From: an uncultured Clostridia bacterium
GTDB lineage: Bacteria; Bacillota; Clostridia; TANB77; CAG-508
Direction: 5' to 3'
Length of the DNA: 64,000 nucleotides
Assembly (NCBI GenBank): GCA_948630815.1
Contig: CAPIEU010000001.1
Coordinates: forward strand, 15,346 to 79,345
In this document: positions 1,946 to 62,303 of the stretch, one piece after another
How positions within the stretch are numbered: position 1 is the stretch's first letter
Layout: each line of letters opens with the position of its first letter
Translations under genes and position numbers: made by a program
Notes under the pieces: generated by a model
Told to the model about the DNA's origin: nothing
Seen by the model: only the letters and a program-made list of their open reading frames with translations
The model's database searches: none

Positions 1946-2277
1946 TTGTTACAGGATAATAGTTTTTATTTTGATAGCAACAAAAGTAATCTTGGAAATC
2001 TACATTTTTAAGCCGCGTAAGCGACCAAACGGAGCGTTAGCGAAGTGCGAATTGGAGCAACCTACATATAAAATGTTATAATTGTAGGTTGCGACACCAA
2101 GGCTTATAAAATGTAGATTGGAAAGATACTTTTCGTTGCTATTTAGGATATATTGTTTGCAATCCGCTCCATCTTGCTGGATGTAGGACATTTTTGTTTT
2201 TCTCTCAGAGTTCGAAAAACAAAAAGTTCTACATCCACGTGTCGCTATTAAAGATTAGTTTAAGATTGAACATTAAC
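1946..2277 (+). repeat. composite intergenic mosaic element: degenerate left TIR, R2 module (1974-2142), R1 hairpin module (about 2150-2255), right TIR agattgaacattaac (2263-2277)
   Basis: The R2 core (2009-2105) recurs reverse-complemented at 17887-17972. The R1 core (2164-2241) recurs at 4099-4176, 32870-32950, 35320-35395, 57395-57475 and 59295-59372. The right end matches the family TIR agactgaacattaac. Confidence 0.8.
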
Positions 2278-2398
2278 TCTAATTAATTTAATTTTATTGA
2301 TACCATTGACATTATTCGATTTTTAATTTATTATTGTGTAGGATAAATTAAAACTAATAGTGTGGAATGTTCCTACTATTAGGTGGGAGGTCTTTTAT

Positions 2399-3253
2399 AT
2401 GAGTGATTTAAAATCATATTTATTTGAAACTAATGCTGTTAAAGTGTCTAAAGGCGATAAACCTTTTTGGTATACATCAGGTAAAATCGGTCCTTATTTT
2501 ATAAATACTCATTTTGTTTATGGAAGTGAAGCTGATGCAAATGATTTATTAAAGTTTATTGATGAAAATAAACATGATAAACTAGGTATGCCAAAGCCTC
2601 TTTTTGAAAAGGTAAAAAAACAATATGATAATAATAAAATTTATAGTGATGTTATTAATGAAATGGTTTCTTTTATAAAAAATACTATTAATGTTGATGA
2701 TATAGATTACATTTCTGGTGGTGAGAGAAGAGATTGGTTCTTTTCTTATATGATTGCTTTTTTACTAAATAAGCCACATATTACTGTTTTTAAAGATTTG
2801 GCTTGTGTTACAAGTGATTCTAATTTTAATGAGACTGCCGTTTCTTCTAATATTAATGGAAAGAAAGTTTTACATATTACTGATTTAATTACTGTTGCTT
2901 CAAGCTTTATTCGTGCTTGGATTCCTGCTATCCAAGATTTAGGTGGAGAGTTGGTTTGGGCTCTTTCTGTTGTTGATAGATTACAAGGTGGTAAAGAGCG
3001 ATTAGCAGATCTTGGTATTACAACATATTCTTTAACTTGTGTTGATGAAGCTTTATTTAGTACAGCTTTTGAAAAGGGTATTATTGATAATTCTCAACTT
3101 AATATGGTTCATAATTTTATTAAAGATCCTGATGGAAGTATGAGAGAGTTTTTAATTAATCATCCTGATTTTATCCAAAACGCTTTAAATGCTGACGAAA
3201 AGACTGCAGGTCGTGCAAGGCTTTTAGTTGATGGGAATTTATATAATTTATAA
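2399..3253 (+). CDS. phosphoribosyltransferase-fold protein (orotate PRTase-like)
   Basis: The ORF is 2360-3253. The likely start is the ATG at 2399, after the RBS aggtgggagg. The call rests on the PRTase-like pattern ...VLHITDLITVASS... and on overall resemblance to PyrE-like proteins. Confidence 0.5.
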   Translation: MSDLKSYLFETNAVKVSKGDKPFWYTSGKIGPYFINTHFVYGSEADANDLLKFIDENKHDKLGMPKPLFEKVKKQYDNNKIYSDVINEMVSFIKNTINVDDIDYISGGERRDWFFSYMIAFLLNKPHITVFKDLACVTSDSNFNETAVSSNINGKKVLHITDLITVASSFIRAWIPAIQDLGGELVWALSVVDRLQGGKERLADLGITTYSLTCVDEALFSTAFEKGIIDNSQLNMVHNFIKDPDGSMREFLINHPDFIQNALNADEKTAGRARLLVDGNLYNL

Positions 3254-3257
3254 AAAA

Positions 3258-3295
3258 ATAGTGTTGGTTGCAGAGAGCAATCAACACTATTTTTT
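3258..3295. terminator. bidirectional intrinsic terminator between convergent genes
   Basis: The stem atagtgttggttgc / gcaatcaacactat has the loop agaga. It is flanked by an A-run (3252-3257) and a T-run (3291-3295). Confidence 0.7.
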
Positions 3296-3589
3296 ATAAA
3301 TTATAATTCTTTCATTATTAATATCATTTATTAATTGTTGATTTTTTATATTTCTTATGTTTAATACATCAAATTTTAATGCACATCTCATTTCCTCTAG
3401 CTTACGTATTAATAATAGTTTTTTTTCGTCTTGTTCTACTTCTATTGCTAAGTCGATGTCTGAAGTTGGTTTATATGTTTGTTTGGCTCTTGATCCAAAT
3501 AATACTACTTTGTTTATTTGTGTTATTTCTTCAAATATATTTAACATTTCTTCATATATTTCTTCTTCTATTCCAAATTTATTCTTCAT
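3287..3589 (-). CDS. minimal nucleotidyltransferase (MNT), antitoxin-type partner of the HEPN protein
   Basis: The 100 aa protein carries the motif LFGSRAKQTYKPTSDIDLAI (GSx...SDxD of the Pol-beta NTase superfamily). It overlaps the upstream HEPN gene by 11 nt. Confidence 0.8.
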   Translation of the reverse strand: MKNKFGIEEEIYEEMLNIFEEITQINKVVLFGSRAKQTYKPTSDIDLAIEVEQDEKKLLLIRKLEEMRCALKFDVLNIRNIKNQQLINDINNERIIIYKK

Positions 3590-59410: not shown

Positions 59411-59475
59411 TAAAAAGCAAACAAGAACAACAAACAAAAGTTCTTGTTTCACAAGAAACATTGGAGGAATAAAAA

Positions 59476-61362
59476 ATGAGTTATTACGCAGGAGAATATG
59501 ATATAGCAGTAATTGGAGCAGGACATGCAGGATGTGAAGCTGCACTTGCATCAGCTAGGCTTGGAAAAAAAACACTATTGTTTTCAATAAGTTTAGAAGC
59601 GGTTGCTAATATGCCTTGTAATCCACATATAGGAGGAAGTTCAAAAGGACATCTTGTAAGAGAAATTGATGCACTCGGTGGAGAAATGGGAAAGAACATA
59701 GATAAAACATACATACAAATAAAAATGTTAAATAAATCTAAAGGTCCAGCAGTATATTCATTGCGTGCACAAGCAGATAGAAAAATGTATCAAATGGAAA
59801 TGAAACATACATTAGAAAAACAGGAAAACTTATTTATAAAACAAGCTGAAATTACAAAAATTAATGTTAATGATAATAAGATAGAAAGTGTAGAAACCAA
59901 TATAGGTGCTATATACAAAGTAAAAGCAGTTATACTTGCAACAGGTACATATTTAAAAGGAAAAATACATATAGGAGAAGTTTCTTTTGAAAGTGGCCCA
60001 GATGGAGTATTTTCATCAATAGAACTATCTCAATGCTTAAAAGATTTGGGAATAGAATTATTAAGATTTAAAACAGGAACACCAGCAAGAATTAATAAAA
60101 ATTCTATTGATTTTTCAAAAATGGAAATACAAAATGGGGACAAAGATATAGAAATGTTTTCTTTTGAAGATGATATTATAGAAAAAGAACAAACACCTTG
60201 TTATTTAACATATACAAATGAAGAAACACACAAAATAATAAGAGCAAATCTACATAGATCACCATTATATGCAGGAAAAATAGAAGGAACAGGACCAAGA
60301 TATTGCCCATCAATAGAAGACAAGATTGTAAGATTTGCAGACAAAGAAAGACATCAAATATTTGTAGAGCCAATTGGAGAAAAAACAGATGAAATGTATA
60401 TACAAGGTATGAGTTCATCATTGCCAGAAGATGTTCAAATTGCAATGTATAGAACAATACCAGGATTAGAATATGCTGAATTTACAAGACCTGCATATGC
60501 AATAGAATATGATTGTATAGAGCCTTCACAACTAAAAATATCACTGGAAAACAAAAAAATAAGTGGAATGTTTTTTGCAGGGCAAATAAATGGTACATCA
60601 GGATATGAAGAAGCGGCAGCACAAGGAATTATAGCAGGAATAAATGCTTCAAGAAAAATAGATAATGAAGAACCAATAATATTAGGAAGAGATAAAGCAT
60701 ACATAGGGGTTTTAATTGACGATATAGTAACTAAAAGTACAAATGAACCATATAGAATGATGACATCTAGGGCTGAATATAGATTATTATTAAGACAAGA
60801 CAATGCAGACTTAAGACTAACAGAACTAGGCTATGAAATAGGGCTTATATCTAAGGAAAGATATGATAGATTTTCTAAAAAAAGAGATAATATATATAAA
60901 GAGTTTGAAAGAGTAAAAGCAAAAATTATAAAACCAACTAAAGAAGTAAATGAACTACTAGAAAAATATGGATCATCTAAAATAGATACTGGTATAAAGT
61001 TCGCAGATTTATTAAAACGTACAGAATTAACATACCAAGGGTTAAAAGATATAGATGAGGAAAGACCAGTTCTTACAAAACAAGAGGCAGAAGAAGTTCA
61101 AATACAAGTAAAATATGAAGGATATATAAACTTACAATTAGCACAAGTAGAAAAAGCAAGAAAACTTGAAGATAAAGCACTTTTTCAAGACATAGAATAT
61201 TCAAAAATATTAGGATTAAGGTTAGAAGCAAGACAAAAATTAGATAAATTTAAGCCAATATCAGTAGGACAAGCGTCAAGAATATCTGGAGTATCACCAG
61301 CAGATATATCAGTATTACTAATATATTTAGAGCAAGAAAAAAGAAAAGGGAAAGAAGATTAA
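59476..61362 (+). CDS. mnmG: tRNA uridine 5-carboxymethylaminomethyl modification enzyme MnmG (GidA)
   Basis: The 628 aa protein has [18 protein letters not shown] and [11 protein letters not shown], and is full length. Confidence 0.95.
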
Positions 61363-61401
61363 GGCGAAACATTAGCAAAATGAAAATTGAAAGGAAAAAT
61401 A

Positions 61402-62124
61402 ATGGAAAAAGAATTATTTATTAACAAGTTACAAGAAGATGCAAATAAACTAAATATAAATCTAACAGATATACAAGCAGAAAAATTTTATACATACATG
61501 AACTTATTGTTAGAATGGAATGAAAAGATTAATTTAACAGCAATCAAAGAACCAGAAGAAATTATAAAAAAACATTTTATAGATTCATTAACAATAAAAA
61601 AGTACATAAATGATAATTCATATATAATAGATGTAGGTACAGGTGCTGGATTTCCAGGAATACCATTAAATATTGTGTCAAATAATAATAAAATTATATT
61701 ATTAGATGCTTTAAATAAAAGATTAAATTTTTTAAATGAAGTGATAAACCAAGCAAATTTAGGAAATATAAAAACAGCACATTTTAGAGCAGAAGAAGCA
61801 GGAAAAAATAAAGAATATAGAGAAAAATTTGATATTGTAATATCAAGAGCTGTAGCACCACTTAATATACTTGTAGAATATTTATTACCATTTGTTAAAA
61901 TAGGTGGTAAATGTATATGTATGAAAGGAAGTAATATACAAGAAGAATTAGAGGTTAGTAAAAATGCGATTAATATATTAGGAGGAAAAATTGAAAAAAT
62001 AGAAAGCTTTGCTTTACCAGGAACTGATATGGCAAGAAATATTATTGTGGTTAGTAAAGTCATTAAAACACCAGCCAAATATCCAAGAAAAGCAGGAACA
62101 CCAAGCAAAGAACCAATTATATGA
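61402..62124 (+). CDS. rsmG: 16S rRNA (guanine527-N7)-methyltransferase RsmG
   Basis: The ORF is 61387-62124. The likely start is the ATG at 61402. It has the SAM-binding sequence IIDVGTGAGFPGIPL. Confidence 0.9.
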   Translation: MEKELFINKLQEDANKLNINLTDIQAEKFYTYMNLLLEWNEKINLTAIKEPEEIIKKHFIDSLTIKKYINDNSYIIDVGTGAGFPGIPLNIVSNNNKIILLDALNKRLNFLNEVINQANLGNIKTAHFRAEEAGKNKEYREKFDIVISRAVAPLNILVEYLLPFVKIGGKCICMKGSNIQEELEVSKNAINILGGKIEKIESFALPGTDMARNIIVVSKVIKTPAKYPRKAGTPSKEPII

Positions 62125-62128
62125 TTTT

Positions 62129-62303
62129 GTTAATATTTAAACCATATTGTTTGCAATTCACACCAATCTAGTAATAATTTATTCTTTAAAAAGTTTCTAC
62201 ACTCGCCAACGCCTCTGGAGATACCGCGTACTACACTTTTAAAAATAAATAAATATATTATTACATTCGCACTAATTATGATAGAGTTGGACTCAACTAG
62301 TAA
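62129..62303 (-). repeat. R3-type element copy between rsmG and soj (ends diverged)
   Basis: The sequence gttaatatttaaacc...tttgcaattcacacc...ctacactcgccaacgcctctggagataccgcgtactacactt...ggactcaactagtaa aligns along its length with the reverse complement of 18024-18193. Confidence 0.75.

What the first reader, a model, noticed from the sequence alone, without database searches (positions are those of the whole stretch)
1946..62303. Dense family of mosaic MITE-like elements sharing one terminal inverted repeat but carrying at least four different internal modules
Most long intergenic spacers in the window are filled by related 140-215 bp elements.
- Composite R2+R1: 1946-2277
- R1: 4077-4226, 32837-32979, 35291-35443, 57361-57480, 59267-59410
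- Truncated R3: 16597-16655
- R2: 17841-18016
- R3: 18024-18193, 36668-36806, 62129-62303
- R4: 59009-59223
- A possible ends-only relic near 7006-7055 (aatgtttgttacagg...aaggctcaatat)

The intact copies end in GTTAATGTTCAGTCT ... AGACTGAACATTAAC (variants ..TTCAGCC/GGCTGAA.. and ..GTTACAGG..). They are flanked by short direct repeats: aaagtat (18017/18194), caaaaata (32829/32980) and aaaaatta (59001/59224). This is the footprint of a cut-and-paste transposase that makes 7-8 bp target duplications.

Inside the TIRs the elements share a left arm (...tttgcaatCCGCTCC...) and then diverge into unrelated structured cores. The organisation is mosaic, in the manner of BOX/BIME-type repeats. No transposase gene is present in the 64 kb. 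I do not recognise the TIR or the cores as a described family.
Basis: seen in the sequence. Interest (0 to 1): 0.8.

Follow-up and report, generated by a model that had tools for sequence, protein, structure and literature searches.

The report
Hairpin MITE family in gut Clostridia
The spacers of this AT-rich gut Clostridia genome hold a real, uncatalogued family of small gene-less mobile DNA elements (MITEs) with shared inverted ends, 7-8 bp target duplications and swappable hairpin cores, which is a new example of a known kind of selfish DNA, not a new kind of system.

Summary
Twelve or thirteen repeat copies in four sequence families (R1-R4) sit at the stated coordinates. They make up about 2.0 kb, roughly a fifth of the non-coding DNA.

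- **Shared ends.** R1, R3 and R4 share a 15-nt terminal inverted repeat, GTTAAYRTTCAGYCT. It has 9 true sites in 64 kb against about 1 expected by chance.
- **Target duplications.** Four copies have exact 7-8 bp direct repeats right at the repeat ends. Chance is 2-5e-4 per site.
- **Empty site.** A sister species (L102) has a clean empty site for the 65-bp copy at 16599-16663. The window differs by exactly the element plus one TATTTTTA.
- **No partner found.** No transposase lies in the window. Rfam, plasmid, phage and viral searches find nothing.
- **Multi-copy and old.** Other assemblies of the same species break inside R1, R3 and R4. One copy (R1e) is shared with a sister species and now provides the mnmE ribosome-binding site.

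- R2 does not carry the shared repeat. It is a separately conserved about 95-nt structured core found in five species, each time closed by a different long AT-rich stem.
- The supposed relic at 7006-7055 is unsupported.
- About half, not most, of the long spacers are occupied.

Verdict: a new MITE family of nested, mosaic build. The mobilising transposase is unidentified.

The parts
1946..2129 (+). R2a. A degenerate left end of the host R1 element (GTTACAGGATAATAG, 1949-1963) is followed by an R2 module. The module is the R2 core (2013-2102) inside a roughly 40-bp AT-rich closing stem. It appears to be inserted into the left end of R1a, because AGGATAATAG at 1953 is repeated as AGGATATATTG at 2146.
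   Evidence: The covariance model scores it at 131.9 bits.
2130..2277 (+). R1a. It has the left arm TTTGCAATCCGCTCC, the R1 hairpin core, and the right terminal repeat AGATTGAACATTAAC.
4077..4226 (+). R1b. Its terminal repeats are degenerate. It is flanked by a 23-nt direct repeat, TTTATTTCTTTCCTAATCTTATT, at 4054-4076 and 4227-4249.
16599..16663 (+). R3t. A 65-bp mini-element made of left repeat, arm, stub and right repeat. It has an 8-bp target duplication, TATTTTTA, at 16591-16598 and 16664-16671. Sister species L102 has a clean empty site here.
17841..18016 (-). R2b. The R2 core (17889-17978) sits at the centre of a 32-bp perfect palindrome carrier (GTTAA...ATACTATAAG...TTAAC). That carrier occurs without a core in relatives.
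   Evidence: (I25).
18024..18193 (-). R3a. A full R3 element with both terminal repeats and a 7-bp duplication, AAAGTAT, at 18017-18023 and 18194-18200. The whole element folds as one long hairpin.
   Evidence: It is present in 5 other assemblies.
32837..32979 (-). R1c. It has both terminal repeats and an 8-bp duplication, CAAAAATA, at 32829-32836 and 32980-32987.
35291..35443 (+). R1d. A diverged R1 copy with decayed ends.
36668..36806 (+). R3b. A partial R3 holding the apex core, the right AT-rich stem and the right repeat AAGCTGAATAGTA.
   Evidence: (D20, I8).
57361..57509 (-). R1e. Its left end has decayed into the Shine-Dalgarno region of mnmE (AAAGGAGCAAAGTAAAATG). It is shared, with its right half deleted, with sister species L086. 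It is absent from L004-L007.
59009..59223 (+). R4. A 215-bp element with near-perfect terminal repeats and an 8-bp duplication, AAAAATTA, at 59001-59008 and 59224-59231. It folds end to end as an imperfect hairpin. Its sub-module at 59063-59119 recurs in other species.
59267..59410 (+). R1f. It carries the end variants GTTCAGCC and GGCTGAAT.
62129..62303 (+). R3c. An R3 copy with decayed terminal repeats, lying in the rsmG-parA spacer.
   Evidence: (D20, I6).

Best explanation
[quoted passage not shown] They are 65-215 bp long, code for nothing, and are bounded by a 15-nt terminal inverted repeat (5'-GTTAAYRTTCAGYCT, outermost bases GTTAA/GTTAC).

The proposed mechanism has four steps:
1. A transposase encoded elsewhere in the genome binds the two ends (inferred).
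2. It inserts the element into AT-rich intergenic DNA through a staggered cut of 7-8 bp. The duplication is shown; the enzyme is inferred.
3. The family is old and has been active repeatedly. Copies are 72-86% identical, some have decayed ends, and one predates a speciation.
4. The interiors are modular. A common base (terminal repeat plus the TTTGCAATCCGCTCC arm) carries different hairpin cores at its apex. Elements also sit inside or against one another. New variants therefore arise by nested insertion, internal deletion and exchange between copies (inferred from anatomy and from one orthologous site).

R2 is a different and older module. It is a roughly 95-nt core with three hairpins, conserved in sequence and structure across at least five species. 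It rides at the centre of unrelated AT-rich palindromes.

The elements are most likely selfish. They have side effects on the host: one supplies a ribosome-binding site, and they break short-read assemblies.
For: **Ends and duplications**
- The terminal repeat is enriched about 9-fold over shuffled sequence in the window only.
- Four elements have exact 7-8 bp duplications flush with the ends, with a chance of 2-5e-4 each.
- L102 has a clean empty site for R3t with 92% identical flanks.

**Presence and absence among relatives**
- The RR-DUF975 spacer (RR is the response-regulator gene at 16757-17812) is 141 nt and empty in L104. It is 266 nt with one weakly R1-like 129-bp element (about 58% identical, GTTAC...GTAAC ends) in L102. 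It is 387 nt in L089 and 474 nt in the window.
- R1e, R4, R1f and R3c are absent from the four nearest genome representatives.

**No coding capacity and no partner nearby**
- No transposase is found in 64 kb.

**Multi-copy and widespread**
- There are 6 R1 and 4 R3 copies in the window.
- R1 also occurs on L001 and L086.
- Assemblies from 5 or more samples break inside R1e, R3a and R4.

**Both orientations**
- Copies lie in both orientations relative to neighbouring genes. This argues against a cis-regulatory RNA.

**Modularity**
- R1 and R3 share the repeat and the arm but not the core.
- L089 has the identical right end TAGACTGAACATTAAC and the same flank AAAGTATTAAC as R3a, but a different interior related to part of R4.

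**Hairpin structure is maintained**
- R1 has 5 pairs with compensatory change in 8 copies.
- R4 folds with a z-score of -7.65.
- R2 has 96% of cells paired and 9 compensatory pairs, with 0 of 500 shuffles as good.
Against: - No autonomous element or transposase with these ends was found. The link to a DDE-type enzyme therefore rests only on the terminal repeat and the duplication.
- R1b is flanked by a 23-nt repeat rather than 7-8 bp. The L102 element seems to duplicate only a short T-run. Not every copy fits one fixed stagger.
- R2 and several related modules have no conserved ends. Their closing stems differ in every copy, which a classical transposase that binds the ends does not explain.
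- Most sister-species spacers have diverged too far to give exact empty sites. Only one is clean.
- The genome outside the 64 kb could not be read, so genome-wide copy number is inferred from assembly breaks.
Confidence: 0.72

Rival explanations
1. The units are genes for a family of structured non-coding RNAs. Long AT-rich stems would act as RNase III processing stalks that release GC-rich cores. The repeats would be paralogous RNA genes rather than transposons.
For: - The cores are GC-rich islands in a 26% GC genome.
- R2 has conserved loops, GNRA-like GUAA loops, and compensatory changes in all five helices.
- R3 copies fold 6-20 kcal/mol better on one element strand, through G.U pairs.
- R4 folds far better than shuffled sequence.
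Against: - Exact target duplications and a clean empty site show DNA insertion.
- Copies lie in both orientations relative to neighbouring genes, with no shared promoter or terminator.
- Many copies are decayed or truncated.
- There is no Rfam match, even at E up to 10.
- In R2 nearly all stem changes are full Watson-Crick swaps. Only one G.U intermediate occurs, which fits DNA-level pairing as well as RNA.
- The strand bias of R3 could simply be inherited from one master copy.
Confidence: 0.08
2. The elements are REP/REPIN-like or IS200/IS605-derived palindromic elements. They would be moved as single-stranded DNA hairpins by a HUH/Y1 tyrosine transposase (RAYT or TnpA).
For: - Every element folds as a hairpin.
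- Elements are often adjacent or nested, as in BIMEs.
- R2 cores sit at palindrome centres.
- The ends read GTTAC/GTAAC, which recalls from memory the short target motifs of the IS608 type.
Against: - Y1 systems make no target duplication and have no terminal inverted repeats. Here four exact 7-8 bp duplications and 15-nt terminal repeats are present.
- No Y1_Tnp protein is found in the window or in the gene tables returned for four of the sister-species look-ups.
Confidence: 0.05
3. The GC-rich cores (R2, the R4 sub-module, and the 'R5' cores seen in relatives) are mobile units in their own right. They would insert into the apex of existing AT-rich hairpins by an undescribed route that targets hairpins. 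The repeat-bounded MITEs would be only their carriers.
For: - R2 is conserved in 5 species, yet every copy has a different closing stem.
- The outer stem of R2b is 26/31 identical (my count) to a core-less palindrome in L086 (6672-6728). The outer stem of R2a equals a core-less hairpin in the L086 mnmE-mnmG spacer.
- R1 and R3 differ only in what sits at the apex of a common base.
- Two 100% identical 'R5' copies lie in inverted orientation in L034.
Against: - There are only 7 R2 copies in 1.41 Mb.
- No exact empty-apex and filled-apex pair exists at one orthologous site.
- AT-rich palindromes can look similar by low complexity.
- Recombination between ordinary MITEs would give the same pictures.
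Confidence: 0.12
4. The resemblances are chance or low-complexity artefacts of a 74% AT genome.
For: Lenient self-BLAST of the window yields hundreds of weak AT-rich matches.
Against: - The element copies align at 72-86% identity over 100-230 nt, with E-values of 1e-10 to 1e-38.
- Specific patterns have zero expected chance hits.
- Copies are found in other assemblies.
Confidence: 0.01

Closest known systems
Bacterial MITEs mobilised in trans by an IS transposase. From memory: Correia/NEMIS of Neisseria, RUP of Streptococcus pneumoniae, bcr1 of the Bacillus cereus group. MITEAba12 is named in a paper title.
   Same: - Size is 65-215 bp and there is no ORF.
- Terminal inverted repeats are about 15 nt.
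- Target duplications have a fixed short length.
- Copies are intergenic, numerous and fold as hairpins.
- Some are occasionally co-opted for gene expression signals.
- This matches the working definition in PMC11602168 (50-800 bp, repeats of 10-15 bp or more, duplications of 2-10 bp, no transposase).
   Different: - No parent IS is known.
- One terminal repeat bounds at least three unrelated interiors.
- A 65-bp copy with little more than the ends carries its own duplication, so it may have inserted in that form or been shortened in place.
- No sequence similarity was found to any searched collection.
Mosaic repeats: BIMEs/REP of enterobacteria and BOX elements of pneumococci (from memory), and mosaic non-autonomous transposons built by Tn3-derived TIMEs (PMC4133298, title and abstract seen).
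   Same: The architecture is modular. The same flanking module is combined with different inner modules, and elements are clustered or nested in the same spacers.
   Different: - REP/BIME and BOX have no terminal inverted repeats with target duplications.
- TIMEs make 5-bp duplications with Tn3-type 38-bp ends (from memory).
- Here the duplications are 7-8 bp and the ends are 15 nt.
Rickettsia palindromic elements (RPE) and other palindromic repeats of AT-rich reduced genomes (from memory).
   Same: Several families of 100-150 bp hairpin-forming repeats are scattered through a small AT-rich genome. They are old and decaying, and no mobilising enzyme is known.
   Different: - RPEs often insert in frame into genes and lack clear terminal repeats and duplications.
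- The elements here are strictly intergenic in this window and have both features.

Membership tests
MITE (non-autonomous class II element) | Small size (about 50-800 bp) and no coding capacity | tested here: met
   The elements are 65-215 bp. None of the listed ORFs of 100 aa or more lies within an element.
MITE (non-autonomous class II element) | Terminal inverted repeats of 10-15 bp or more, shared by the copies | tested here: met
   GTTAAYRTTCAGYCT is found at both ends of R3a, R4, R1c and R3t, and at one or both ends of R1a, R1f and R3c. There are 9 sites against about 1 by chance. This feature is not met by R2.
MITE (non-autonomous class II element) | Target-site duplication created on insertion | tested here: met
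   Four exact 7-8 bp duplications are present. L102 has an empty site with a single TATTTTTA.
MITE (non-autonomous class II element) | Multiple dispersed copies in the genome | tested here: met
   There are 11 repeat-related copies in 64 kb. A further copy lies on L001. Assembly breaks fall inside R1e, R3a and R4 in several samples. The genome-wide count is not measurable here.
MITE (non-autonomous class II element) | An autonomous IS with the same ends encoding the transposase | not testable with these tools
   - None is in the window.
- None is in the gene tables returned for four of the sister-species look-ups.
- The end-plus-arm pattern has 0 hits in 185,579 species genomes.
- The rest of the source genome could not be read, and ISfinder is not available.
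REP / REPIN / BIME (RAYT-associated) | Short imperfect palindromes without terminal repeats or target duplication, associated with a RAYT gene | tested here: not met
   Terminal repeats and duplications are present. No Y1 transposase is found in the window.
IS200/IS605-derived palindrome-associated elements | Subterminal hairpins, no terminal inverted repeats, no duplication, insertion 3' of a fixed tetra- or pentanucleotide | tested here: not met
   The four target duplications differ in sequence (AAAGTAT, CAAAAATA, AAAAATTA, TATTTTTA) and are duplicated.
Any Rfam RNA family | Score at or above the family's gathering threshold | tested here: not met
   Only 4 tRNAs pass in the whole window. 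Nothing credible appears at E up to 10 over R1, R2, R3, R4 or the L086 'R5' core.
Integron attC sites | Arrays of cassettes with ORFs separated by attC hairpins next to an intI gene | tested here: not met
   There is no integrase. The elements are scattered singly among housekeeping genes.

The most novel reading that the evidence does not exclude
The GC-rich structured cores are themselves a new class of tiny mobile structured modules that home to the apex of AT-rich hairpins. The best case is R2. It has three hairpins in a closed junction, invariant loop sequences, and is found in five species, always inside a different long stem. In this reading the repeat-bounded MITEs are only one of several carriers. 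The module could act as single-stranded DNA or as RNA.
Probability: 0.12. Interest if true: 0.75.

Novelty: new member of a known kind. Interest (0 to 1): 0.4.

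Why it matters
- **A dated record of spacer turnover.** The work gives a case of how intergenic DNA changes in an uncultured, small-genome gut Clostridia lineage. The same spacer is empty, singly, doubly or differently occupied in four species that are about 90% identical.
- **An explanation for broken assemblies.** It shows why short-read assemblies of this species break at fixed points.
- **Strain markers.** The insertions can serve as ready-made markers for telling strains apart.
- **A host side effect.** One decayed element end has become the ribosome-binding site of mnmE.
- **A lead worth following.** R2 is a compact motif with covariation support. It is absent from Rfam and deserves a proper genome-wide search.
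- **A tractable open question.** The transposase that recognises GTTAAYRTTCAGYCT and makes 7-8 bp duplications is unknown and should be findable in the full genome.

Tried and rejected
1. **End-plus-arm pattern in species genomes.** I scanned 185,579 species genomes for TTCAGYC-N6-7-TTTGCAAYCCGCTCC and found 0 hits. The source species is not in that collection. The nearest relative there has 91% MnmG identity.
2. **R1 core in metagenomes.** The scan gave 3 loci, of which only L001 is genuine.
3. **Viral scans.** I scanned for the R1 core, the R2 core and the terminal repeat. R1 gave nothing. The R2 and repeat hits are chance, as the covariance model scores are 14.5 bits or less.
4. **Exact look-ups.** MnmG and RsmG are not on record. 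The look-ups that succeeded returned only short Logan contigs, never a long contig of the source genome, so the genome beyond the window stayed out of reach.
5. **Empty sites in most spacers.** Comparisons for R4, R1f, R3c, R1e and the R2 and 'R5' copies in other species (L067/L044, L066/L075) were too diverged for base-exact junctions. L089 at the R3t site holds an unrelated 65-nt segment.
6. **The L086 'R5' core as an HDV-like or other ribozyme.** There is no Rfam support.
7. **A consensus structure for 'R5'.** Only the CCNNC/GNNGG helix aligned.
8. **The split D-Ala-D-Ala carboxypeptidase gene (699-1945).** I checked whether an element had inserted in the gene. It has not. The intervening DNA is coding-like, so this is a point-mutation pseudogene or a sequencing error.
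9. **ORF 35455-36360 as a candidate transposase.** It is flanked by R1d and R3b, but no family hit appears even at E = 0.1.
10. **Naming the IS family from the end sequence.** From memory there is only a weak resemblance to IS1 ends (GGTAATG...). This was not tested and no claim is made.

Full report
**Setting.** The window is 26% GC. It covers the replication-origin region of an uncultured gut Clostridia genome. It holds dnaA (53203-54540, minus strand), rnpA, yidC, jag, mnmE, mnmG, rsmG and parA, as well as gyrB, gyrA, dnaN and recF, and an NRPS (gene order confirmed in relatives). The nearest genomes in the species collection are MAGs labelled uncultured Clostridium or Clostridia, with MnmG identity of 91% or less. 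The source species itself is not in that collection.

- The repeat finder recovers the families independently, and alignments confirm them.
- R1 has six copies. They share a 60-nt hairpin core flanked by CTTGCT and CACGTG. A 21-base degenerate pattern hits exactly these six, with none expected by chance.
- R3 has three long copies and one 65-bp copy. R2 has two copies and R4 has one.
- The terminal repeat GTTAAYRTTCAGYCT, allowing up to 2 mismatches, occurs ten times. Nine of these are at element ends. Shuffled windows give 0-3.
- In 1.35 Mb from 80 related species the same pattern stays at chance level. This end is therefore specific to the window's species and its closest sister (L089 has one perfect copy).
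- By my ORF mask and the element coordinates, the elements total about 2.0 kb. That is 3% of the window and about 21% of its non-coding DNA. They occupy 9 of the 18 spacers of 200 nt or more.

**The elements inserted as DNA and made target duplications.**
- Flush with the terminal repeats there are exact direct repeats: AAAGTAT (R3a), CAAAAATA (R1c), AAAAATTA (R4) and, newly found, TATTTTTA around the 65-bp R3t.
- Random spacer positions show an exact 7-mer or 8-mer at rates of 4.6e-4 and 2.4e-4.
- The decisive test worked at one site. In sister species L102 the histidine kinase to response regulator spacer reads GGGCTTTTT-TATTTTTA-TGTTAAATTTCTG. The window has the same sequence interrupted by the 65-bp element plus a second TATTTTTA. 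The remaining columns are 92% identical.
- The next spacer (response regulator to DUF975) shows the dynamics. It is 141 nt with only a terminator hairpin in L104. It is 266 nt with one weakly R1-like 129-bp element (about 58% identical, GTTAC...GTAAC ends) in L102. It is 387 nt in L089 and 474 nt (R2b plus R3a) in the window.

**The family is old, multi-copy and fixed in sampled strains.**
- R1 copies are 72-86% identical to each other.
- R1e is shared with sister species L086, where its right half has been deleted. It is absent from L004-L007.
- Its decayed left end now carries the mnmE Shine-Dalgarno sequence in both species. This is read from the sequence, and the function is inferred.
- Five Logan assemblies from five samples all begin at window position 18120, inside R3a, and are 100% identical downstream. 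Two others start inside R1e and stop at 59127, in the R4 apex.
- This is the expected signature of repeats that are multi-copy in the genome. It also shows that R3a is present in all sampled strains.
- An extra R1 copy lies on an unrelated 2.8-kb metagenome contig, next to a 293-aa and a 367-aa ORF that I did not annotate; no homology search was run on them.

**No partner was found and no catalogued match exists.**
- No ORF of 100 aa or more in the window has a transposase, integrase or reverse-transcriptase domain (Pfam; NCBIfam).
- Rfam finds only four tRNAs at gathering thresholds, and nothing credible at E up to 10 over the elements.
- BLAST against 72,556 plasmids and 50,697 phages finds nothing.
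- Viral-contig scans give only chance hits.
- A literature search returned general MITE work but nothing on this lineage.

**Anatomy is modular and nested.**
- R1 and R3 share the terminal repeat and the arm TTTGCAATCCGCTCC, then differ at the apex. R1 has a hairpin. R3 has an AT-rich stem capped by a GC-rich core.
- R4 shares only the repeat. It folds end to end as one imperfect hairpin at -79.4 kcal/mol, z = -7.65.
- At the site orthologous to R3a, L089 has the identical right end and flank (TAGACTGAACATTAAC-AAAGTATTAAC). Its interior, however, is built from a sub-module related to R4 59063-59119. That sub-module also occurs elsewhere in L089 and in L008.
- So interiors are replaced, or elements insert into one another, while ends persist.
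- R2a appears to be inserted into the left end of R1a, because the AGGATA-containing segment is repeated on both sides (read from the sequence).
- R1b is an exception. It has a 23-nt flanking repeat that includes the 3' end of the neighbouring protease gene.

**R2 is a separate matter.**
- Its roughly 95-nt core is conserved in the window (two copies) and in L017, L020 (two copies), L067 and L078. Every copy is closed by a different 25-40 bp AT-rich stem.
- RNAalifold gives a closed junction with three hairpins. On six sequences 96% of cells pair and nine pairs show changes on both sides. No shuffle out of 500 does as well, and slid controls collapse.
- A covariance model finds only these seven copies in 1.41 Mb.
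- The carrier palindromes of R2b and R2a occur without the core in L086 and L004. This hints that cores enter hairpin apexes.
- A second such core family ('R5', GGGGA-CCNNC...GNNGG-GAR) occurs in at least six other species.
- Stem changes in R2 are almost all full Watson-Crick swaps, so the data do not say whether the structure matters as RNA or as DNA.

**Conclusion.**
This is a MITE family, new in sequence, with an unidentified transposase.
- What goes beyond a routine MITE is the degree of module swapping, and the existence of cross-species structured cores that do not depend on the terminal repeat.
- I rate the overall finding as a new member of a known kind.
- I flag the core modules as the part that could turn out to be more unusual.

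Noticed in passing
window 54809-54825; L086 6627-7413; L004 5232-5830: At one point in the dnaA-rpmH (oriC) spacer, two sister species carry a 600-790 bp cassette that the window lacks. The cassette has a conserved promoter and leader (TTGACAAATATTATGTAAAATGATATA...) but different small ORFs (132 aa against 108 aa, with no Pfam hit on record for the 132-aa ORF). It is bounded on the left by the same palindrome family that carries R2b. In L086 an R1 copy sits on its right.
   Followed up: partly
window 57480-57512: The Shine-Dalgarno sequence of mnmE (AAAGGAG) lies inside the decayed left end of element R1e. The same is true in sister species L086. L004-L007, which lack the element, use a different ribosome-binding sequence.
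   Followed up: partly
window 4054-4076 and 4227-4249: A 23-nt direct repeat (TTTATTTCTTTCCTAATCTTATT) flanks R1b. Its right copy includes the 3' end of the HtrA-like protease gene. This is much longer than the 7-8 bp duplications of the other copies.
   Followed up: no
window 33216-34932 and 45125-47614: Conjugation genes appear fragmented. A VirD4-like gene is split into two ORFs and a VirB4-like gene is split into two ORFs. A T4SS pilin gene lies at 34954-35283. Part of this set sits between gyrA and gyrB, which are usually adjacent. It looks like a decayed integrative conjugative element. R1c, R1d and R3b lie around it.
   Followed up: no
window 699-1945: A D-Ala-D-Ala carboxypeptidase gene is broken into two ORFs. 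The 164 nt between them still look coding. This is a pseudogene or an assembly error, not an element insertion.
   Followed up: yes
L034 5098-5255 and 12880-13053; L066 5275-5394 and 8029-8149; L075 12836-12954 and 15737-15842; L086 14327-14477; L008 2179-2293: A second family of GC-rich cores ('R5': GGGGA-CCNNC...variable hairpin...GNNGG-GAR) sits inside long AT-rich stems in other species of the clade. It includes two 100% identical inverted copies in one genome. It has no Rfam match.
   Followed up: partly
window 40256-40350: A 95-nt near-perfect palindrome (47-nt arms, 81% complementary, 1-nt centre) lies in the spacer next to the gyrA stop codon. It is not a member of the R1-R4 families.
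   Followed up: no
window 24689-26225: Two overlapping ORFs both encode BspA-type leucine-rich repeats. This is probably one gene with a frameshift.
   Followed up: no
window 7254-14750: A two-module NRPS with a terminal reductase domain (2498 aa) is conserved in all the sister-species loci fetched around the response-regulator gene (L088, L089, L102, L104).
   Followed up: no
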